Positions 2,885 to 54,060 of a stretch of 64,000 bases of DNA are shown here, piece by piece. Origin of the DNA: a virus (Duplodnaviria; Caudoviricetes); IMG/VR virus record IMGVR_UViG_3300033757_000347; one strand, given 5' to 3'. The notes below the pieces were generated by a model. That model saw nothing but the letters and a program-made list of their open reading frames with translations. It searched no databases and had not been told where the DNA came from. Positions within the stretch are counted from its first letter, which is position 1. Every line of letters starts with the position of its first letter. Made by a program: the position numbers and the translations under genes.

Positions 2885-4720
2885 ATGACGAAACAGAACA
2901 AAGAAATTAGCGAAAAGTACCAGCTATTGGACGAGATAGAGCACGTGCTCAAACGTCCGGGAATGTACATCGGCTCGACCAAACCGCACACTGCCCAGGA
3001 ATGGATCCTTAAGGACGGAATGTACGAGAAGGAAGAACTGACTTACAACCCAGGTTTCCTAAAACTTTTTGATGAGATCATTTCCAACTCAGTAGACGAG
3101 TACAAGAGGACAGGAAAGGTAACCACAATCAAAGTCATGGTGGTTAGCGACACTATCTCCGTCTTCGACAACGGTGGAATACCCGTCATTCAGCACACCG
3201 ATCACAAGCAGTGGATCCCTGAGATGATATTCTCGAACCTTCGTGCTGGCTCTAACTTCGACGATGACGAGAGCAGAATCGTTGCAGGAACTAACGGTAT
3301 CGGAGCAACTGCTGTAAACATCTTCTCAACTAAGTTCATGGTGAACACGGCGGACGGAAAGAACCAGTTCGTTCAGGTTTACACCGACAACATGTCAAAG
3401 AAGACCCAACCGAAAGTGTCAGGTTCTTCTCGCAGTTTCACAGAGATCACTTACACTCCGGATCTTAAGAGGTTCGGCATGGACAGCATAGACGATGCTC
3501 ACATCAAGATGATGAGAAAGCGAGTCATTGACATCGCTGCTTGCAATCCCGGTTTGCGCTTGGAGTTCAACACCGAAAAATTCAGGTTCAAAACCTTCAA
3601 GGAATACGTTGACACTTACGTGAAGGACTGCGTGTGGGAAAAATCAAAGGACTGGGAAATAGCGATAGGAGTTTCCAAGGACGGGTTTCAATCCGTTTCC
3701 TTCGTGAATTCCATAGCAACCAAGGAGGGGGGAACTCACGAGAACTTCATCCTTTACCAAGCGGTCGAAGCCATCAGAGCAATGATCAAGAAGAAGCACA
3801 AAGTTGAAGTTAAACCTGCAGAGATCAGAGCACACATGTTTCTGTTCATGAACTGCACCATCGTCAACCCAGCTTTCGATTCTCAGACCAAGACCAGGTT
3901 GATTACTGAACCTAAGGATTTTGGAACTACTCACAAAGTTTCGGATAAGTTCAACAAAGCCCTGTTCGAGTCAGAGGTTGTCCAATCGCTTCTTGATTGG
4001 ATCGAACAGAAGAAAGCAGCGGAGGAAAGAACCGAACTCAGAAAGCTCAACAAGACTCTTGGAACGGCAAAGATACTCAAGCTCATAGATGCTAAGGGAC
4101 GTGACCGTAACAAGTGCGTTCTCGGAATATTCGAAGGAAACTCTGCAGTTTCAGCCGTTCGAAAGTTCAGAGACCCTCAAATTTTTGGTGGGTTTCCTCT
4201 TAAGGGAAAGTTCATAAACGTGAGCGAGATGACTAACGCTGAGGTCATCAAGAACGACGAAGCTGTTCAGCTAATGGGAGCGTTAGGAATAAAGTTCGGA
4301 GAGTACCCAAGCAGCTTGAGGTACGGGAAGATCTACTTGTACACCGATGCAGATCCGGACGGCGATCACATTGCTGCTTCGCTGTTGAATTTTTTCGACA
4401 AGTATTGGCCGGATCTCATCAATCACGGAAGAATATTTCGAGTCATGACTCCGCTCGTTGTTGCAAAGAAGGGAAAGGAAACTCTGCTGTTCTACACTGA
4501 TGCTGAATTTTCCGCTTGGGAAAAGAAGCACGCTAAGGGTTGGGACATTGAGTACAAGAAAGGTTTAGCAGCTTTGGAGGACGAGGAATACAAGGAAATC
4601 ATTCACAAACCCGTTCTTCTGAAGCTCAGCAACGATGACAATTACAAGCAGAGCTTGCAGGACTGGTTCGGACCCGACCCATCTGTGAGAAAGGAAAAAT
4701 TGCTGGCAAAGTCAGTATAA
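2885..4720 (+). CDS. Type IIA DNA topoisomerase, ATPase/TOPRIM subunit (T4 gp39+60-like)
   Basis: EHVLKRPGMYIGS, EIISNSVDE, GTNGIG, EGNSA, PLKGK, TDADPDGDHI, YKKGLA. Confidence 0.95.
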   Translation: MTKQNKEISEKYQLLDEIEHVLKRPGMYIGSTKPHTAQEWILKDGMYEKEELTYNPGFLKLFDEIISNSVDEYKRTGKVTTIKVMVVSDTISVFDNGGIPVIQHTDHKQWIPEMIFSNLRAGSNFDDDESRIVAGTNGIGATAVNIFSTKFMVNTADGKNQFVQVYTDNMSKKTQPKVSGSSRSFTEITYTPDLKRFGMDSIDDAHIKMMRKRVIDIAACNPGLRLEFNTEKFRFKTFKEYVDTYVKDCVWEKSKDWEIAIGVSKDGFQSVSFVNSIATKEGGTHENFILYQAVEAIRAMIKKKHKVEVKPAEIRAHMFLFMNCTIVNPAFDSQTKTRLITEPKDFGTTHKVSDKFNKALFESEVVQSLLDWIEQKKAAEERTELRKLNKTLGTAKILKLIDAKGRDRNKCVLGIFEGNSAVSAVRKFRDPQIFGGFPLKGKFINVSEMTNAEVIKNDEAVQLMGALGIKFGEYPSSLRYGKIYLYTDADPDGDHIAASLLNFFDKYWPDLINHGRIFRVMTPLVVAKKGKETLLFYTDAEFSAWEKKHAKGWDIEYKKGLAALEDEEYKEIIHKPVLLKLSNDDNYKQSLQDWFGPDPSVRKEKLLAKSV

Positions 4721-11447: not shown

Positions 11448-12599
11448 ATGAATCGAAACCCAAGATCAAATCAATATTATTTAGATCGCGGTTATGTATT
11501 TAGCGAAGCGGTTAAATTAGCCGAAACGTTTGATGGAACTAATAAAGTAGATGACCACATTCAGAGAATAGTAGGATATGATCGTTGGAAACAAGTTAGA
11601 TACACAAATTGCTCACTAAAAAAGGAAAATCAAATTAAAAAATATGGTCTTTCTGAGTATGAAAAAAGGAAAGCCTCTTTTGCTAAGGCATTAGACCATA
11701 CTAGAGAAAACAGTATCAATACTTGGGTAAATCGTGGATATTCTATACACGAAGCCAAAGCAATTGTTTCTAAAATACAAAGAACTCGGTCTAAGCGATG
11801 TGTTGAATATTGGACAATAAAAGGGTATACCATTAATGAAGCAGTTTTGATGGTAAGCGAAAGTCAATCCATAACTAGTAAAAAGAGCTTCTTGACTCGA
11901 TACGGTGATGAGGTAGGCTCCATTAAATACGTCAATTACATTAAAAAACTTAAAGAAGTTTCACAATTTGGAATCAGCTATTGGCTAAATAAACATGACG
12001 GCAACTCGGATAAAGCAATCGAATCTTTATTTCAATATCAAAGCAAAAATGGATTCAGTCAACGGGGTTCCAAAAAATATTGGCTGAGTTTAGGATATGA
12101 TGATGAATCTGCTGAACAAGCAAGTTTACATTTTTCAAGGAAACGGTCATCCTGGTGTTATGAGTATTGGTTAGATAAGGGCTTTTTGTACAACGAAGCA
12201 ATTGACATAGTCAAGAATATTCAATCAAAAAATGCTAGACTTCGAAAATTTCTTAATTTTTCTAAACTGGAAAAAGAAGTAATATCCGAATTACGAGAAA
12301 TGCATCCAACTTTAACATTTTTAGAAAATGAAATTGTAATTGATAACGGGGCTAGAATATTTCCAGATATTGTAATTAAAGAGTTAAATACCGTTATTGA
12401 AGTGTATGGAGATTTTTGGCATGCAAATCCAAGACAATACAAAACTGACCAATACATGCACTCGGGAATGCTAGCAAAAGAGATATGGGAAAAAGATAAA
12501 GTTCGACTTGACCTCTTAAAAAAATCGTACGATAATATCATCGTACTTTGGGAAAGTGACATTAAAAAAAATGGAATAGCTAGTGTTAAAATTAATTAA
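11448..12599 (+). mobile_element. Free-standing endonuclease (Vsr/DUF559-like PD-(D/E)xK) between the split-intein halves
   Basis: FPDIVI, IEVYGDFWH, VLWESD; AT-rich; repeated YW..KGY units; ATAAATA upstream. Confidence 0.75.
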
Positions 12600-13611
12600 A
12601 AAAGTAAGAATTGAAGAAAAAGTAAGATATTGGGATATGTCTATTCCCAAAACTCATAATTATGTTTTGGGTAATGGTGCAGTTGTTCATAATACGGGAG
12701 TAGGATTTAGCGTTCAAAAGCACCACGTTGAAAACTTGCCAGAAATCACAAAGCCTAATCACAACCGGCGTAGAAGGTTTCTGATAGGCGATAGCATCGA
12801 GGGTTGGGCAGATTCTATAAAAGTTCTGATGAAGTCTTACTTCTTCGGTGGGTCGGCTATCGATTTTGATTTCAGAGACATTCGGCCTAAGGGCGCTAGG
12901 CTGGTAACTTCCGGTGGAAAAGCTCCAGGACCTCAACCTCTAAAAGAGTGCTTGGTAAAGATCGAAGGTTTACTATCTCAGAAAGAGAATGGCGACAAGC
13001 TGAAACCTATCGAAGTTCACGATATCGTCTGCTACATAGCTGACGCTGTTCTAGCCGGAGGAATTCGCAGAGCTGCTCTTATCAGCTTGTTCAGCGCGGA
13101 CGACGACGAGATGATTTCTGCCAAGACCGGCTCGTGGTGGGAACTTAACCCACAGAGAGGTAGAGCTAACAATTCTGCGGTTCTTCTTCGCAACATAATA
13201 ACCAGAGAATTTTTCATGGACATGTGGGCAAAGATAGAAGCGTCGGGTTCGGGAGAACCTGGAATATATTTTAGCAACGACAAAGATTGGGGGACTAACC
13301 CATGCTGCTTGAGCGGAGATACTCTCATTCAAACCAAGAACGGAGAGATACCGATCAGAGAATTAGTAAATCTTCATAAAAAAACCGGATCCTGCCCAAA
13401 GGTCTGGACGTATGATGAAAAAACCGCAACTCGAGAGCTCATGTCTATAGAAGCTGCTGATTTAACCAGACAAAACGCCGAACTCATAAAGCTCGAGTTG
13501 GAAAATGGATCGATCATAAAATTGACTCCAGATCACCAAGTGTACACCAAAAACAGAGGTTACGTTGAGGCTGCTAAACTTACGGAGGACGATGAACTAT
13601 TAATGTGGTAG
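12583..13611 (+). CDS. nrdJ: nrdJ fragment 2: C-half of intein 1, RNR core, N-half of intein 2
   Basis: ...HNYVLGNGAVVHN|TGVGFS (12694); GGIRRAALI; WGTNPC|CLSGDT (13306)...TPDHQVYT. Confidence 0.92.
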   Translation: MLKLIKKVRIEEKVRYWDMSIPKTHNYVLGNGAVVHNTGVGFSVQKHHVENLPEITKPNHNRRRRFLIGDSIEGWADSIKVLMKSYFFGGSAIDFDFRDIRPKGARLVTSGGKAPGPQPLKECLVKIEGLLSQKENGDKLKPIEVHDIVCYIADAVLAGGIRRAALISLFSADDDEMISAKTGSWWELNPQRGRANNSAVLLRNIITREFFMDMWAKIEASGSGEPGIYFSNDKDWGTNPCCLSGDTLIQTKNGEIPIRELVNLHKKTGSCPKVWTYDEKTATRELMSIEAADLTRQNAELIKLELENGSIIKLTPDHQVYTKNRGYVEAAKLTEDDELLMW

Positions 13612-43284: not shown

Positions 43285-43332
43285 ATGAAGAGAATCAACA
43301 GTTCGTAGGGTCAGATCGTTCTGACAATATGA
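43285..43332 (+). promoter_or_regulatory. Amber-terminated leader MKRINSS(TAG); readthrough would end in ATGA at the next start
   Basis: TAG 43306-08; hairpin GTCAGA/TCTGAC; TGA 43330-32 overlaps ATG 43329. Confidence 0.55.
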
Positions 43333-50556: not shown

Positions 50557-50764
50557 TCAACCTTCACGACTTCTTCGTTGTGTGCTGCATCTTAGCTGCT
50601 ATAGATTTTATTCTACCAGTTCCGCCGGTTAACGTTGGCTTTCCGTGGTGGCGCTGGTTACCTGGTTCGGAAATTGTCCTGTGGCTGATGTACTGGAAAA
50701 ACAACAAGTGAAACCTTTTTTGGGAGCCTTGTATAAATAATACAGAACGACGCTTAACAACGAT

Positions 50765-50884
50765 ATGAAATAGGTAACGAGACAACCACGCAAAACTAAA
50801 AGACCTCAGCGTTTCGCAGAGGCGACCCAAACGGGCGCTCGCGTGACGTTCTCGACCAAGTTTAGTAATAGCGCCCGTTTTTTA
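50765..50884 (+). promoter_or_regulatory. M-K-amber leader followed by a terminator-like hairpin
   Basis: ATG AAA TAG at 50765; AAACGGGCGCT (50829-39)/AGCGCCCGTTT (50870-80) plus T-tract. Confidence 0.6.
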
Positions 50885-50887
50885 TAT

Positions 50888-50960
50888 CGCGGGGTGGCAG
50901 CAGAGGTAGCTCGCAAGGCTCATAACCTTGAGGTCGGAGGTTCGAATCCTTCTCCCGCAA
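50888..50960 (+). tRNA. tRNA-fMet(CAT)
   Basis: C1:A72 mismatch; loop CT-CAT-AA. Confidence 0.9.
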
Positions 50961-51012
50961 CACTTGTAGGTATCGCATCGGGCAAGTACTGGAATCTACC
51001 TACTATTTTTTT

Positions 51013-51044
51013 ACCTCATCCTGAAAGGGGTGAGGTTTTTTATT
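51013..51044 (+). terminator. Intrinsic terminator between tRNA-fMet and the RNA ligase gene
   Basis: ACCTCATCC-TGAAA-GGGGTGAGGT plus T-tract. Confidence 0.7.
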
Positions 51045-51058
51045 GGTACAATACTCTC

Positions 51059-52096
51059 ATGGAAGCACCAGTACTACATACACGAGATGAATTTCGCGAG
51101 AAGGTTTTCGAACGCGATAATCACAGTTGCGTGATATGTGGAAAGCCAGCAAAAGACGCACATCACATAATAGAACGGAGACTGTTTTCAAACGGCGGGT
51201 ACTATTTGGAAAATGGAGCTTCTCTGTGCGAGGAACACCACATAGCAGCCGAACAGACTACTCTGTCGTGCGACGAAATCAGAGAAAAAGCAGGTATCAC
51301 TAGAATTGTTATACCGGATCAGCTATACGATGATAATGCGTATGATAAGTGGGGAAACATAATCCTTCCGACTGGAAATCGTTTGAAAGGTGAACTGTTC
51401 TACGATGAATCAGTTCAAAAGATACTCAAGCAGGGAGGAGTCTTGGACCTGTTTCAAAAGTACGTAAAGTACCCAAGAACGATGCACCTTCCGTGGAGCA
51501 ACCTGCTAAAGGACGATAGAATACTAGAAAACGACGAACATTTCATCGGTCGTGAAGTAGTATGCACACTGAAGATGGACGGCGAAAACACGACTATGTA
51601 CAACGATAAGATCCATGCTCGTTCGCTGGACTCAGCTTCTCACGAGACCAGAAACTGGGTAAAAGGTCTTTGGGCTAGAATATCGTGGATGATTGACGAT
51701 AACATGCGACTGTGCGGAGAGAACCTTTACGCGGTACATTCCTTAAAATACGACAGCTTACCATCCTATTTTATGCTATTTTCGGTGTGGGTAGACAATG
51801 TCTGCTTAAGCTGGAAGGAAACGGAAGAGTACGCTGGTATTTTGGGATTGCAAACGGTGCCCGTCATATACCAGGGAATTTACGACAGAGAAAAGATCGA
51901 GAAAGCATTTGCTAAGTACGCAGACACTAACGAAGGTTACGTGATTAGATTGGCTGACCAATTTCTCTATTCTGACTTCAGGCGAAGCATAGCAAAATAC
52001 GTTCGCCCGCAGTTCAGGCAAGCTGTCAACAATTCTCACGGACACTGGATCTCAAAAAAGATAGAAACTAACACGCTGAAAGGTGACAATTCATAG
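51059..52096 (+). CDS. HNH domain fused to an ATP-dependent RNA ligase
   Basis: VFERDNHSCVIC..DAHHI..N..LCEEHH; KYPRTMHLPWS, motif I KMDGEN, GEN, EGYVIR, AKYVR. Confidence 0.85.
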   Translation: MEAPVLHTRDEFREKVFERDNHSCVICGKPAKDAHHIIERRLFSNGGYYLENGASLCEEHHIAAEQTTLSCDEIREKAGITRIVIPDQLYDDNAYDKWGNIILPTGNRLKGELFYDESVQKILKQGGVLDLFQKYVKYPRTMHLPWSNLLKDDRILENDEHFIGREVVCTLKMDGENTTMYNDKIHARSLDSASHETRNWVKGLWARISWMIDDNMRLCGENLYAVHSLKYDSLPSYFMLFSVWVDNVCLSWKETEEYAGILGLQTVPVIYQGIYDREKIEKAFAKYADTNEGYVIRLADQFLYSDFRRSIAKYVRPQFRQAVNNSHGHWISKKIETNTLKGDNS

Positions 52097-52160
52097 AAAA
52101 AGTGGTACGTTAAACTCCACTAAGCAATTTTGCACCACAATAACAAAAAAATCAAACAAG

Positions 52161-52247
52161 ATGAAGTAGAGTATCAGAAGTCCCGTCGGCGTTTTTGAAT
52201 CGCAAGCTGTTAATTCACAAAATTCTCAACAAAAAAATTCAAAAACA
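52161..52247 (+). promoter_or_regulatory. M-K-amber leader with a helix masking the next start region
   Basis: ATG AAG TAG at 52161, in frame with ATG 52248; GTTTTTGAAT (52191-200) complements ATTCAAAAAC (52237-46). Confidence 0.6.
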
Positions 52248-52547
52248 ATGACAACAAAAGACTTAAAATCGGAAATCAAAGCCCTTTCGCAGAAGCAGAG
52301 GGAAACCAAGGAACAGAGAAAGACCGAAAAATTTACCGGAACTCGTTCGTTGACACCATGGGAAGCACAAATGCTCGCACTTCGGCAGAAAGAGCAGCTC
52401 AAGCACATGTTCATCGCGTATGCTCTGCTCAGAAACAAACCGATCGAATCAGCGATCTCTGAAAAGACCGAATGGTCGAAAAAGAAGGTCGACGAAATCA
52501 TGGCGAAGTATGCAGAAGTTGTATGTGTTAGTGAGAACGGATCTTAA
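52248..52547 (+). CDS. Basic hypothetical protein
   Basis: 99 aa; HMFIAYALLR. Confidence 0.7.
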   Translation: MTTKDLKSEIKALSQKQRETKEQRKTEKFTGTRSLTPWEAQMLALRQKEQLKHMFIAYALLRNKPIESAISEKTEWSKKKVDEIMAKYAEVVCVSENGS

Positions 52548-52806
52548 GGGATCCAGCCCGGCCGTCCAGGCCGGCCACGCAGTCGCCCAGTGGATGCTTG
52601 ATAATCCAAACCAAACTTGGAACAATCAAACGTTGATCTACTTAAACGTCGGTGACGCAGACTCGCTGCACAGGTGGGAAATCAAGCTCCAGTACCGAGA
52701 AATGGAATTCACCTAGTTCAAGGAACCGGACCTAAACGACGAAACCACCGCGATCGCTTGCCTAACCGATAACCGAAACATCTTTAGCAGCCTTCCGCTC
52801 CTGTGA
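52510..52806 (+). CDS. PTH2-like peptidyl-tRNA hydrolase with an in-frame amber codon at 52714-52716
   Basis: KLYVLVRTDL..AVQAGHAV...EFT(TAG)FKEPDLNDETTAIAC...LPLL*. Confidence 0.75.
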
Positions 52807-52834
52807 GCGGAGGGCTTCCTTTTAACAGAAAACA

Positions 52835-53260
52835 ATGGACACTTACATAGATCACAAGAACGTGGTGAAGAGACTCGTGGACGAGTACAAGTTCCACGGA
52901 GGTTTGGTGGTAGCGTACGATTTCGACAACACTGTGTACGATTATCACAAGAAGGGGGACACCTACGACATGGTAGTAGACCTTCTAAAAACCTTGGAAA
53001 AAGTTCCAGGAATAAGCTTAGTGGTTTGGACCGGAACTGCTAACGAACGTCACGATTTTGTAAGAGTCTACCTTCAAGCAAACGACATTCCGTACCACAC
53101 GATAAACGAGAACCCATCTTTCTTCAAATCTTCGAGTAGAAAGATCTTTTACAGCATTCTTCTCGATGATAGAGCTGGTTTAGCTTCAGCGTACAATGCT
53201 CTGGTTGACTTTTTGAACGAAATTGGGGTACAGTATTCTTACGAAAAACTGGGTTCGTAG
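52835..53260 (+). CDS. HAD-family phosphatase
   Basis: AYDFDNT, VWT, INEN, LLDDRA. Confidence 0.8.
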   Translation: MDTYIDHKNVVKRLVDEYKFHGGLVVAYDFDNTVYDYHKKGDTYDMVVDLLKTLEKVPGISLVVWTGTANERHDFVRVYLQANDIPYHTINENPSFFKSSSRKIFYSILLDDRAGLASAYNALVDFLNEIGVQYSYEKLGS

Positions 53261-53322
53261 TTCAGCGGTAGAACACCGGTCTCTAAAACCGTTAGTCGAG
53301 GGTTCGAATCCCTCCGTTCCCA
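53251..53322 (+). tRNA. Amber suppressor tRNA (anticodon CTA) with a Trp-like scaffold
   Basis: CCGGT-CTCTAAA-ACCGT; T arm GAGGG-TTCGAAT-CCCTC; two U:U mismatches in the acceptor stem. Confidence 0.8.
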
Positions 53323-53376
53323 CCGTGGTCATTTTGTACCTTCGCTAAGATAAATAATCAAAAGTGAAGTTACAAA

Positions 53377-54060
53377 ATGGCAAGAAAACCGTACAAATAT
53401 CATTACATTTACAAAACAACCTGTAGTGTTACCGGTCGTTATTATATAGGAATGCACTCAACTTTTAACTTGGAGGATGGGTACATAGGCAGCGGTAAGA
53501 GATTATGGAGATCTATTAATAAACATGGAAGAAATCAGCACAATACTGTGATTCTTGAATTCTTAGAAAATAGACAAGCTTTAAAAAATAGAGAAAGCCA
53601 ACTCATAACCGAAGATCTGTTAAAGGATTCTATGTGCATGAACTTAAAAGTCGGAGGAGAAGGTGGATTCGCCAATAAAGAACATCAAGTAAAATGTTCC
53701 AGTTTAGGGAATCAACGATTTCAAGAAAAATTACGAAATGATCCAGACTTTTACAAAGAGGTATGTAAAAAACGATCTGACAGCAATAAAAAAGCACATA
53801 AACTAGGTATTCATAAAAATTGGAAAACTAATAACGTATCTTGGGTAGGAAAACACCACACAGCTGAAACTAAGAAAAAAATACAAGAAGCGGTCAAAGG
53901 TAAACAAGTAGGTTCTAATAATTCGCAATTTGGAACAAAGTGGATGGTACATTTAGAAAATGGCGCTATTAAAGTTTCAGCTAATGATGTTTCTTCTTAC
54001 CTTTCCTTAGGATACGTTTTCGGTAGAAAATATAGAACACAGGATATAATGTCACACTAA
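53377..54060 (+). mobile_element. GIY-YIG (Seg-like) homing endonuclease
   Basis: YIYKTTCSVTGRYYIG, YIGSG, NLKVGGEGG. Confidence 0.85.

What the first reader, a model, noticed from the sequence alone, without database searches (positions are those of the whole stretch)
52510..53322. Peptidyl-tRNA hydrolase interrupted by TAG, about 530 nt from an amber-suppressor tRNA: a local amber regulon
Seen: the PTH2-like ORF breaks at TAG (52714), yet the conserved-looking C-terminus FKEPDLNDETTAIA...LPLL continues in frame to TGA 52806. A CTA-anticodon tRNA with a Trp-like anticodon arm follows in the same transcription direction. Ordinary genes still end in TAG (8521, 13611, 15531, 22962, 27200, 52096), so the genome is not recoded. 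With the three amber leaders (43285, 50765, 52161), this suggests selective amber readthrough as a switch for translation-rescue genes. Positive feedback is possible because the suppressor lies downstream of the gated elements. Caveats: the suppressor has two U:U acceptor mismatches, and the TAG could be a sequencing error or a recent nonsense mutation.
Basis: partly seen in the sequence, partly recalled or inferred. Interest (0 to 1): 0.87.

Follow-up and report, generated by a model that had tools for sequence, protein, structure and literature searches.

The report
Amber-gated phage Pth2 gene, suppressor tRNA
A 174-kb sludge phage that otherwise uses the normal genetic code keeps a UAG stop inside a small tRNA-hydrolase-like gene (and at codon 3 of the gene before it) and carries its own UAG-reading tRNA just downstream, so these proteins are probably made in full only while that tRNA overrides the stop.

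Summary
A PTH2-fold gene (52510-52806) has one in-frame TAG at codon 69 (52714-52716), and a tRNA with anticodon CUA lies 537 nt downstream on the same strand (53251-53324). The TAG is no error: contigs from four independent studies carry it. The 29 codons after it are under purifying selection (pN/pS 0.15) and encode two core strands and invariant residues.

This is one copy of a widespread phage module. A CUA tRNA lies beside the PTH2-like gene in 40 of 42 viral loci and 17 of 19 MAG loci. About 27 of these 61 related genes carry one in-frame stop. It is always TAG, at 8 or more different sites, with at least 7 gains or losses on the tree.

The genome is not recoded. This is the only strong internal in-frame stop in 174 kb, and 24 of 152 long ORFs end in TAG.

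New here: the upstream gene ORF-U starts ATG-AAG-TAG, and its post-TAG leader evolves as coding sequence (6 synonymous, 0 non-synonymous changes).

Charging, decoding and the enzyme's role remain untested. This scan has reported the same module before on many other genomes; my paper searches found no description of it. Serratia phage BF is a cultured example.

The parts
52097..52160 (+). Conserved non-coding stretch upstream of ORF-U, a possible promoter or leader
   Evidence: About 97% identical to L003, while the flanking coding DNA is 75-80% identical. It is partly diverged in L046, although ATG-AAG-TAG is kept there. No promoter was shown.
52161..52547 (+). ORF-U, long form: ATG-AAG-TAG (TAG at 52167-52169), then 26 codons in frame into the 99-aa ORF that starts at ATG 52248. 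A helical protein of unknown family; its last 38 nt overlap the PTH2-like gene.
   Evidence: Against L003 the 26 post-TAG codons show 6 synonymous and 0 non-synonymous changes (pS 0.36, pN 0; chance about 1e-4). L046 keeps ATG-AAG-TAG. Homologs lie directly upstream of PTH2-like genes in 8 other loci. AF2 pLDDT is 88, all-helical, with no PDB or Pfam match. One RNA-library variant (X14) lacks the ATG-AAG-TAG and has a TAA in the leader.
52510..52806 (+). PTH2-fold, hydrolase-like gene of 98 codons, with an in-frame TAG at codon 69
   Evidence: Pfam PF01981 E 0.0017, 19 bits, below the 23-bit cut-off. Profile against PDB Pth2 chains E 1.5e-4. AF2 pLDDT 95. Top Foldseek hits are archaeal Pth2 and human Bit1, TM 0.73-0.80. 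87 homologs found.
52714..52716 (+). In-frame amber codon (context ACC TAG TTC), inside strand 67-72 of the model
   Evidence: Unchanged in contigs from 4 studies. Homologs have a variable residue here (T/E/V/I/S). Four protein clusters at 100, 91, 82 and 65% identity end at this same site. Downstream pN/pS is 0.15.
52789..52816 (+). Terminator-like hairpin (12-bp stem, 8 G-C pairs, tail TCCTTTT) spanning the TGA stop of the PTH2-like gene
   Evidence: Consensus scan. L003 keeps it with a G-to-A change that turns a G-U pair into A-U. Function not shown; RNA-library contigs run across it.
52835..53260 (+). HAD-like ORF (141 aa, DxDxT motif) inserted between the PTH2-like gene and the tRNA in this clade. 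Its TAG stop lies inside the tRNA gene.
   Evidence: phrog_1238 E 3e-23. 92% identical in L003. Absent from most other loci, where the tRNA follows within 0-30 nt. Strains differ by an indel at 53242-53246.
53251..53324 (+). tRNA with anticodon CUA (amber suppressor type), discriminator A73, no encoded CCA, tandem U-U mismatches at 4:69 and 5:68
   Evidence: ARAGORN. RF00005 64.9 bits. L003 and L005 keep the U-U pairs while 6:67 and 11:24 change compensatorily.

Best explanation
The stretch 52161-53324 is one same-strand gene block: ORF-U, a PTH2-fold hydrolase-like gene, an inserted HAD-like gene, and a tRNA with anticodon CUA. The phage otherwise reads the standard code. The full-length PTH2-like protein needs UAG at codon 69 to be read as an amino acid, and the long form of ORF-U needs the same at codon 3. 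Without suppression, the ribosome releases a 68-residue fragment that lacks two core strands and the invariant E-P-D and T-A motifs. Production of the enzyme is therefore tied to the activity of the tRNA encoded beside it.

Shown by computation: the TAG is real and old. The sequence after it is under selection. The tRNA is well formed and conserved. The gene-tRNA pairing and the TAG-only interruptions recur across dozens of diverged phages. There is no genome-wide recoding.

Inferred: the tRNA is charged and decodes UAG. The coupling matters because the enzyme either handles products of suppression (peptidyl-tRNA from read-through or drop-off) or tunes the suppressor itself. Premature stopping at the TAGs may also lower transcription into the downstream tRNA, through polarity or the 52789-52816 hairpin, which would give positive feedback.
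For: The TAG is present in contigs from 4 independent studies.

Post-TAG region: pN/pS is 0.15 against L003 and 0.14 against L005. It contains family-invariant E72 and T80 and near-invariant P73, D74 and A81, and strands 67-72 and 78-86 of a pLDDT-95 PTH2 fold.

Protein clusters at 91, 82 and 65% identity stop at the same site.

CUA tRNA: 64.9 bits, with compensatory changes in relatives.

Module: a CUA tRNA or tRNA-like gene lies beside the PTH2-like gene in 40 of 42 IMG/VR loci, about 24 of them 0-30 nt downstream and often as the only tRNA in 20 kb. The same holds in 17 of 19 MAG loci.

In-frame stops in the PTH2-like gene: 14 of 42 loci and 13 of 19 loci, all TAG and never TAA or TGA. Sites are codons 2-5, 33-35, 46, 49, 57, 66 and 69. 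The tree needs at least 7 changes, and the 100/99-supported clade of window, L005 and L003 shows TAG69, TAG34 and none.

Not recoded: coding density is 0.87 by code 11 and 0.88 with TAG as sense, no more than the TGA and TAA controls. TAG69 is the top-scoring and only credible internal stop with coding-like flanks in the 174 kb. Among loci, no other conserved gene carries an internal stop.

ORF-U leader: 6 synonymous and 0 non-synonymous changes.

The base after an in-frame TAG is a purine in 15 of 17 cases, against 10 of 24 for terminal TAGs (Fisher 0.0035).

Cultured example: Serratia phage BF has GAGGAA-N6-ATG ACG CAC TAG in front of an unannotated PTH2-like ORF, and a CUA tRNA 3.3 kb downstream.
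Against: Nothing here is experimental. Whether the tRNA is made, charged, and with which amino acid is unknown. The window's tRNA has three non-standard pairs (U4:U69, U5:U68, C27:U43) and no encoded CCA.

The TAG is followed by T. From my own knowledge of E. coli work, that is a good termination context and a poor suppression context.

24 of 152 long ORFs of this phage end in TAG, with no close back-up stops (median extension 14 codons). Strong suppression should therefore be costly.

Part of the low pN/pS was accumulated on TAG-free lineages.

The window protein scores below the Pfam PTH2 cut-off. The Lys-rich GKGK stretch of archaeal Pth2 aligns with Ser-rich residues here, so hydrolase activity is not assured.

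The X14 strain variant lacks the ORF-U amber start.
Confidence: 0.75

Rival explanations
1. Tolerated, not selected. The phage tRNA does read the TAG, but the codon has no switch function. It drifts in and out because this small gene tolerates whatever residue and whatever reduced yield result, or because low dosage of a possibly toxic hydrolase is harmless or useful.
For: The TAG sites fall at variable residues or in the N-terminal tail. Gains and losses are fast even among close relatives. About half of the PTH2-like genes have no TAG. In the window the +4 base is T.
Against: Drift under a diffusible suppressor should scatter TAGs over all genes in proportion to their length. Here they are confined to the two genes next to the tRNA, which make up about 0.3% of the genome. 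TAG69 is kept in clusters down to 65% identity. The +4 base is purine-rich.
Confidence: 0.15
2. Broken gene or assembly error. The TAG is a recent nonsense mutation or a sequencing artefact, and the tRNA nearby is a coincidence.
For: There is a single stop in a small gene. The tRNA has an imperfect acceptor stem.
Against: Contigs from 4 studies have the identical sequence. The same stop site appears in clusters at 91, 82 and 65% identity. pN/pS after the stop is 0.15 and all invariant residues are kept. There are no frameshifts. The same gene is interrupted by TAG, and only TAG, in 27 of 61 related loci, nearly all beside a CUA tRNA.
Confidence: 0.02
3. Genome-wide recoding. The phage reads TAG as an amino acid in many (late) genes, as code-15 phages do, and the PTH2-like gene is just one of them.
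For: The phage encodes a suppressor tRNA. Lak megaphages, reported as TAG-recoded, carry a 41%-identical homolog with a UUA-anticodon tRNA 700 nt away.
Against: ORFs of 120 aa or more cover 82% of the genome under code 11. Reading TAG as sense adds nothing beyond the TGA and TAA controls. No other credible internal TAG exists in 174 kb. 24 of 152 long ORFs end in TAG, and where checked the next gene starts right after.
Confidence: 0.02
4. Read-through without the phage tRNA. Host near-cognate decoding or a host suppressor gives the full-length protein, or the 68-residue fragment is itself the functional product, and the CUA tRNA serves another purpose.
For: The tRNA has not been shown to be charged. 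Its acceptor stem is odd. A HAD-like gene separates it from the PTH2-like gene in this clade.
Against: The near-obligate adjacency of CUA tRNAs to this gene family, together with the exclusive use of TAG (the one stop that a CUA anticodon reads), is hard to explain otherwise. The fragment lacks two core strands and the invariant motifs.
Confidence: 0.04

Closest known systems
Stop-codon-recoded phages with phage-encoded suppressor tRNAs (TAG read as Gln, 'code 15': crAss-like and Lak phages; PMC9523058, PMC11210395, PMC10879173)
   Same: A phage-encoded tRNA that reads UAG allows translation of phage genes with in-frame TAG in a host that uses the standard code. This is proposed as a way of timing gene expression. 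Lak-C1 even carries a homolog of this PTH2-like gene next to a suppressor-type tRNA.
   Different: Here the code is standard in the rest of the genome. In-frame TAGs are confined to the one or two genes beside the tRNA, not spread over structural and lysis genes. The gated gene is itself a tRNA-metabolism enzyme.
prfB (RF2) autoregulation through an in-frame UGA (own knowledge)
   Same: An in-frame stop codon inside a translation-factor gene makes the yield depend on how that stop codon is currently being decoded.
   Different: In prfB the gene product itself reads the stop, and the escape is a +1 frameshift, giving negative feedback. Here a separate tRNA reads the stop in frame, and the direction of any feedback is unknown.
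Peptidyl-tRNA hydrolase 2 (PF01981; PDB 2zv3, 3erj, 1xty, 1q7s), already noted in jumbo phages (PMC7824862)
   Same: The fold is the same (TM 0.73-0.80, probability 1.00). The motifs are shared: VQAGHA aligns with the AQGGHA of 2zv3, and an acidic residue followed by T-A-(I/V)-A is kept near the C-terminus.
   Different: It is shorter (97 against 115-120 aa) and below the Pfam cut-off in the window copy. The GKGK segment is replaced. Activity is untested. The published note mentions neither suppressor tRNAs nor in-frame stops.
Jumbo-phage suppressor tRNAs without known targets (Xanthomonas phage XacN1, PMC5852040)
   Same: A standard-code phage with CUA suppressor tRNAs and a peptidyl-tRNA hydrolase gene.
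   Different: The authors read through the annotated amber stops, found no target, and did not link the tRNAs to the hydrolase. Here the target is the hydrolase-like gene itself.
Lambda bar minigenes and Pth (own knowledge)
   Same: Very short ORFs of the start-codon-stop type, like ATG-AAG-TAG, are known sources of peptidyl-tRNA drop-off that Pth must clear.
   Different: No evidence here that the short ORFs act in that way. At 52161 the substitution pattern points to read-through into ORF-U instead.

Membership tests
PTH2 peptidyl-tRNA hydrolase (PF01981) | Score above Pfam's gathering threshold | tested here: not met
   19 bits against a cut-off of 23, E 0.0017. Several homologs carry a precomputed PF01981 hit.
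PTH2 peptidyl-tRNA hydrolase (PF01981) | PTH2 alpha/beta fold | tested here: met
   AF2 model pLDDT 95. The top 13 Foldseek PDB hits are nearly all Pth2 structures (11 Pth2/Bit1/PH1539 chains, plus 2gax and 1rlk of unknown function), TM 0.69-0.80, probability 1.00. Family profile against PDB Pth2 sequences E 1.5e-4.
PTH2 peptidyl-tRNA hydrolase (PF01981) | Catalytic residues (Lys and Asp of the archaeal enzyme, recalled from my own knowledge of the S. solfataricus work, not verified here) | tested here: inconclusive
   The HMM alignment places invariant H23 on the conserved His, and E72 on the Asp of the D-A-G motif. The GKGK segment aligns with Ser-rich residues. No residue-level structural superposition was available.
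PTH2 peptidyl-tRNA hydrolase (PF01981) | Hydrolysis of peptidyl-tRNA or N-acyl-aminoacyl-tRNA | not testable with these tools
   Needs an enzyme assay.
Amber suppressor tRNA | Canonical tRNA cloverleaf | tested here: met
   RF00005 64.9 bits against 29. ARAGORN also calls it. There are three non-standard pairs.
Amber suppressor tRNA | Anticodon CUA in a 7-nt loop with U33 and a purine at 37 | tested here: met
   Loop CUCUAAA.
Amber suppressor tRNA | Aminoacylated and decodes UAG on the ribosome | not testable with these tools
   Indirect evidence only: in-frame TAGs in the adjacent conserved genes.
Code-15 (TAG-recoded) phage | Many genes with in-frame TAG; coding density rises when TAG is read as sense | tested here: not met
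   Density 0.87 against 0.88, no TAG-specific gain. One internal TAG in 174 kb. TAG ends 24 of 152 long ORFs.
PTH2-like + tRNA(CUA) cassette (defined by this scan, unpublished as far as searched) | PTH2-like gene and CUA tRNA on the same strand, close together | tested here: met
   442 nt from the gene's stop codon to the tRNA, with one inserted ORF. L003 has the same layout. 40 of 42 and 17 of 19 related loci have the pairing.
PTH2-like + tRNA(CUA) cassette (defined by this scan, unpublished as far as searched) | Any in-frame stop in the cassette genes is TAG, in an otherwise intact frame | tested here: met
   TAG69 in the PTH2-like gene and TAG3 in ORF-U. Relatives: 27 interrupted genes, all by TAG.
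prfB-type autoregulation | The product of the gated gene is itself the factor that decodes the in-frame stop | tested here: not met
   The decoder is a separate tRNA gene. This is an analogy of logic only.

The most novel reading that the evidence does not exclude
The cassette is a self-contained translational switch or homeostat. Read-through of the TAGs in ORF-U and the PTH2-like gene lets ribosomes reach and melt the hairpin at 52789-52816 and relieves polarity, which raises transcription of the downstream CUA tRNA (positive feedback). The PTH2-like enzyme acts on the suppressor's own acyl- or peptidyl-tRNA, or on the peptidyl-tRNAs that suppression creates, and so sets the level of stop-codon override. 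On this reading such cassettes are the seed from which full TAG recoding (code 15) evolved in phages such as Lak.
Probability: 0.15. Interest if true: 0.85.

Novelty: new variant of a known kind. Interest (0 to 1): 0.7.

Why it matters
Many standard-code phages carry "suppressor" tRNAs for which no target has been found (for example XacN1, PMC5852040). This module supplies a target: the hydrolase-like gene next door. If it holds, it is a natural, compact, tRNA-operated gene switch, and a plausible intermediate between the standard code and the TAG-recoded phage codes.

It also has a practical consequence for annotation. Gene callers truncate or miss these genes; the ORF is unannotated in Serratia phage BF.

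A cultured phage with the same layout makes the idea directly testable.

Tried and rejected
The DNA of the truncated relatives P0010, P0012 and P0035 could not be read, so their stop codon and downstream frame are unverified.
- A degenerate DNA pattern for the TAG69 site found nothing in IMG/VR.
- The metagenome scan for the ORF-U start gave only L003's contig and one short new contig, L046, which ends before codon 69.
- Complex prediction on ORF-U plus the PTH2-like protein (the L003 pair) returned no answer, score 0.00. This is no evidence either way.
- ORF-U has no Pfam family and no significant PDB fold match.
- Leader at 50765 (ATG-AAA-TAG): rejected as a read-through start. The changes after it against L003 are non-synonymous, and it lies between a TATAAATA box and tRNA-Met.
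- Leader at 43286: rejected, because the frame closes 7 codons after the TAG.
- ATGAARTAG occurs 5 times in the window against 1.24 expected. However, 33506 lies in a structured-RNA region and 37468 inside an ORF in another frame, so no general leader family is claimed.
- The broad scan for ATG-(1-6 codons)-stop followed by a long ORF showed no TAG excess over TAA or TGA.
- TAG-terminated long ORFs with long in-frame extensions turned out to be next genes in the same frame.
- cmscan of five loci found no tRNA at E 0.01, because the E-value is scaled by all families. The single-family search did find the L001 tRNA.
- L026 (TAG66) has no tRNA on its 27.5-kb fragment, so it is uninformative.
- Depths of RNA-library contigs were not used to rank expression, as the tool advises.
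Full report
**1. What is in the sequence**

On the + strand, an ORF starts at ATG 52510 and reads MQKLYVLVRTDL... It meets TAG at 52714-52716 (codon 69), continues in the same frame as FKEPDLNDETTAIA...LPLL, and ends at TGA 52804-52806.

ARAGORN finds 44 tRNA genes in the window, which are all the tRNAs of the 174,479-bp contig. The last one, at 53251-53324, has anticodon CTA. Infernal scores it 64.9 bits against RF00005, whose gathering score is 29. It has three non-standard pairs: U4:U69, U5:U68 and C27:U43.

**2. The TAG is real**

The stretch 52090-53340 is held by 20 public runs from 11 studies of sludge, wastewater and anaerobic digesters. I laid contigs of four runs from four different studies, two DNA and two RNA libraries. 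They cover 52251-53242 and show no difference from the window between 52227 and 52945. A sequencing or assembly error is excluded.

The same table shows strain variation just before the tRNA (53242-53246). Some strains have an L003-like insertion there, and one has 1,067 extra bases.

**3. The gene is a PTH2-fold protein, and the part after the TAG is needed**

- Pfam PTH2 matches below threshold: 19 against 23 bits.
- A profile of 80 homologs finds the archaeal Pth2 structures by sequence, E 1.5e-4.
- The AlphaFold model has pLDDT 95.
- Its best structural matches are archaeal Pth2 (2zv3, 3erj, 1xty, 1wn2) and human Bit1 (1q7s), with TM 0.73-0.80.

Codon 69 lies in strand 67-72. The 29 residues after it form the rest of that strand and strand 78-86. 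They carry family-invariant E72 and T80 and near-invariant P73, D74, A81 and A83. A 68-residue product would lack them.

Against L003, the closest relative with a sense codon (ATT) at this site, the post-TAG codons have pS 0.51 and pN 0.07, so pN/pS is 0.15. That is as constrained as the N-terminal third of the gene (0.14). Against L005 the ratio is 0.14.

In full-length homologs the residue at column 69 varies (T, E, V, I, S and others). Any inserted amino acid should therefore be tolerated.

Four protein clusters end at exactly this site: the window's own, and three at 91, 82 and 65% identity.

**4. The phage is not recoded**

- ORFs of 120 aa or more cover 82% of the genome under the standard code. 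They end in TAA 104 times, TGA 24 times and TAG 24 times.
- Reading TAG as sense raises the estimated coding density from 0.87 to 0.88, no more than reading TGA or TAA as sense.
- I scanned every stop with 28 open codons on both sides and scored both flanks with a codon model. TAG 52714 was the clear top hit. The other candidates look like off-frame noise.

**5. The gene and the tRNA form a conserved module**

I fetched 42 distinct IMG/VR loci that encode homologs at 30-72% identity. ARAGORN finds a CTA-anticodon tRNA on the same strand in 38 of them. In about 24 loci it lies 0-30 nt after the stop codon of the PTH2-like gene, and it is often the only tRNA in 20 kb. Infernal adds one that ARAGORN missed (L001, 23 nt downstream) and a weak D-arm-poor one in L030's contig. 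That makes 40 of 42.

An independent set of 19 loci from GTDB MAG contigs gives 17 of 19.

The tRNAs have very different acceptor stems, nearly all with 7 perfect pairs, and discriminators A, G or U. They are maintained as working tRNAs, but probably not for one fixed amino acid.

**6. The interruptions are always TAG, and they recur**

In the IMG/VR set, 9 genes have one internal stop, at codons 33, 34, 34, 34, 35, 46, 49 and 66, plus the window's 69. Five more have a stop at codons 3-5, directly after the ATG. All are TAG.

In the MAG set, 13 of 19 genes are interrupted, 11 of them at codons 2-5. Again all are TAG.

No TAA or TGA occurs inside any of these genes. An all-against-all tblastn among the loci found no other conserved gene with an internal stop supported by several loci.

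A maximum-likelihood tree needs at least 7 gains or losses of the TAG state. Within the 100/99-supported clade of window, L005 and L003, the states are TAG69, TAG34 and none.

The base after the in-frame TAG is a purine in 15 of 17 cases, against 10 of 24 for terminal TAGs of this phage (Fisher 0.0035). Against the purine share of first codon positions the excess is marginal (0.03). The window's own TAG is followed by T.

**7. A second gated gene in the window**

It is in frame with the 99-codon ORF that starts at 52248 and overlaps the start of the PTH2-like gene.

Between the window and L003, the 26 codons from the TAG to that ATG differ at six positions. All six are third codon positions and all are synonymous (pS 0.36, pN 0). 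The pS is like that of the neighbouring coding DNA. The chance that six random changes all fall on synonymous sites is about 1e-4.

A third sequence, L046, has a diverged upstream region but keeps ATG-AAG-TAG, with one Ser-to-Asn change at codon 4.

This argues that translation starts at 52161 and passes the TAG, giving a long form of the protein I call ORF-U.

Two cautions apply. One strain variant in an RNA library lacks the ATG-AAG-TAG and has a TAA in this leader. Other ORF-U homologs start at the internal Met.

ORF-U itself is a conserved third part of the module. Homologs lie directly upstream of the PTH2-like gene in L003, L005, L014, L022, L024, L029, L030 and L035, and downstream of it in L040. 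L035 also begins ATG-AAA-ATG-AAG-TAG with 25 further codons before the Met.

ORF-U is predicted to be helical (pLDDT 88). It has no Pfam family and no structural match.

**8. The other two leaders are not supported**

The mini-ORF at 50765 (ATG-AAA-TAG) follows a TATAAATA box and precedes tRNA-Met and a terminator-like hairpin. The whole stretch is about 96% identical to L003, but the few changes after the TAG are non-synonymous in that frame.

The ORF at 43286 closes again 7 codons after its TAG.

ATGAARTAG is somewhat over-represented in the window, 5 against 1.24 expected. But two of the five copies lie in a structured-RNA region or inside another ORF.

**9. How it most likely works**

The shown facts point to one conclusion. 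The full-length PTH2-like protein, and the long ORF-U, are made only when UAG is decoded, and the decoder is the CUA tRNA encoded beside them.

I could not test why a phage would want this. Three readings fit.

- **Feed-forward.** The enzyme is needed only when suppression is active. It might clear peptidyl-tRNAs produced when ribosomes run past TAG stops, or when they drop off at very short ORFs. Making the enzyme through a UAG matches its supply to suppressor activity in the current host.
- **Negative feedback.** The enzyme acts on the suppressor's own acyl- or peptidyl-tRNA and caps suppression. That would explain how a phage with 16% TAG stops tolerates a suppressor.
- **Positive feedback on the tRNA.** A 12-bp terminator-like hairpin (52789-52816) spans the gene's stop codon and is kept in L003 with a pair-preserving change. 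Ribosomes that stop at codon 69 would leave it free to form, and would expose the mRNA to polarity upstream of the tRNA.

These are inferences. RNA-library contigs do run across the hairpin.

A simpler rival is that the TAG merely lowers the dose of a possibly harmful hydrolase, or is tolerated without any function. The confinement of TAGs to the genes next to the tRNA argues against pure drift.

**10. Relation to what is known**

- Code-15 phages use suppressor tRNAs to read TAG in many late genes (PMC9523058, PMC11210395, PMC10879173). This phage fails that membership test.
- PTH2 has been noted in jumbo phages as a possible ribosome-rescue factor, with no mention of suppressors or stops (PMC7824862).
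- The XacN1 paper reports CUA suppressor tRNAs with no identifiable target, and separately a hydrolase (PMC5852040).
- My paper searches found no description of the pairing or of the in-frame TAGs.
- The Lak-C1 megaphage has a 41%-identical homolog with a UUA-anticodon tRNA 700 nt upstream. The module may therefore be linked to the origin of recoding.
- The cultured Serratia phage BF has a Shine-Dalgarno-like GAGGAA six bases before ATG ACG CAC TAG, followed by the PTH2-like frame. GenBank leaves this stretch unannotated. BF has a CUA tRNA 3.3 kb downstream.

**11. Earlier notes of this scan**

The scan's own index shows that the same module has been reported before on many other genomes, usually with the TAG at codon 3. 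My results agree with those notes.

This window adds the following:
- an internal TAG69 conserved within a sub-clade;
- read support from four independent studies;
- substitution evidence for a second gated gene;
- ORF-U as a recurrent third component;
- the hairpin over the stop codon;
- an independent replication set.

**12. Verdict**

I rate it a new variant of a known kind, namely suppressor-tRNA-dependent decoding restricted to the tRNA's own cassette. Everything about charging, decoding and enzyme function still needs experiments.

Noticed in passing
window 50700-51040: A T4-late-type TATAAATA box, a roughly 110-nt leader, tRNA-Met(CAT) at 50888-50961 and a strong terminator-like hairpin (51013-51036 plus a T run) form a block about 96% identical to L003. 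That is far more conserved than the flanking genes. It looks like a separately transcribed late tRNA-Met unit, and the long 'ORF' 50843-52096 runs through it.
   Followed up: partly
window 12571-12585: ATG-GAA-TAG lies in frame 4 codons before the GTG start of the split-intein/RNR piece (12583-13611) and overlaps the end of the upstream homing-endonuclease ORF. It could be chance or another amber start. No relatives were compared.
   Followed up: no
window 53242-53260 and 53251-53324: The TAG stop of the HAD-like ORF lies inside the tRNA gene. Other strains and L003 carry an insertion here (about 55 nt in L003, 1,067 nt in run X6). The window's junction is therefore a deletion variant that brings the ORF up against the tRNA.
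   Followed up: partly
window 53251-53324; L003 3862-3933; L005 10307-10380: Tandem U-U mismatches at acceptor positions 4:69 and 5:68 are conserved in three diverged phages, while pairs 6:67 and 11:24 change compensatorily. This is a selected oddity of the clade's suppressor. Other clades have perfect acceptor stems.
   Followed up: partly
window 53377-54060; L046 1-900: A GIY-YIG/NUMOD-type homing endonuclease gene lies directly after the suppressor tRNA (phrog_314, E 4e-34). The near-identical cassette in L046 has a different upstream neighbourhood, an endonuclease-like ORF plus a tRNA-like stretch. The cassette seems to move between contexts.
   Followed up: no
L047 (Serratia phage BF, KY630187.1 286083-286406): The PTH2-like ORF of this cultured jumbo phage is not annotated in GenBank, evidently because of the TAG at codon 4. 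The same 'none' annotation appears for the Yersinia fHe-Yen9 and Erwinia pEa_SNUABM relatives.
   Followed up: partly
L127 (Prevotella phage Lak-C1, MK250029.1) 3237-4294: A tRNA with anticodon UUA, which reads UAA and UAG, lies 700 nt upstream of the Lak homolog of the PTH2-like gene. No ATG is visible in the 15 codons before the conserved KKLYVLV start.
   Followed up: no
   Followed up: no
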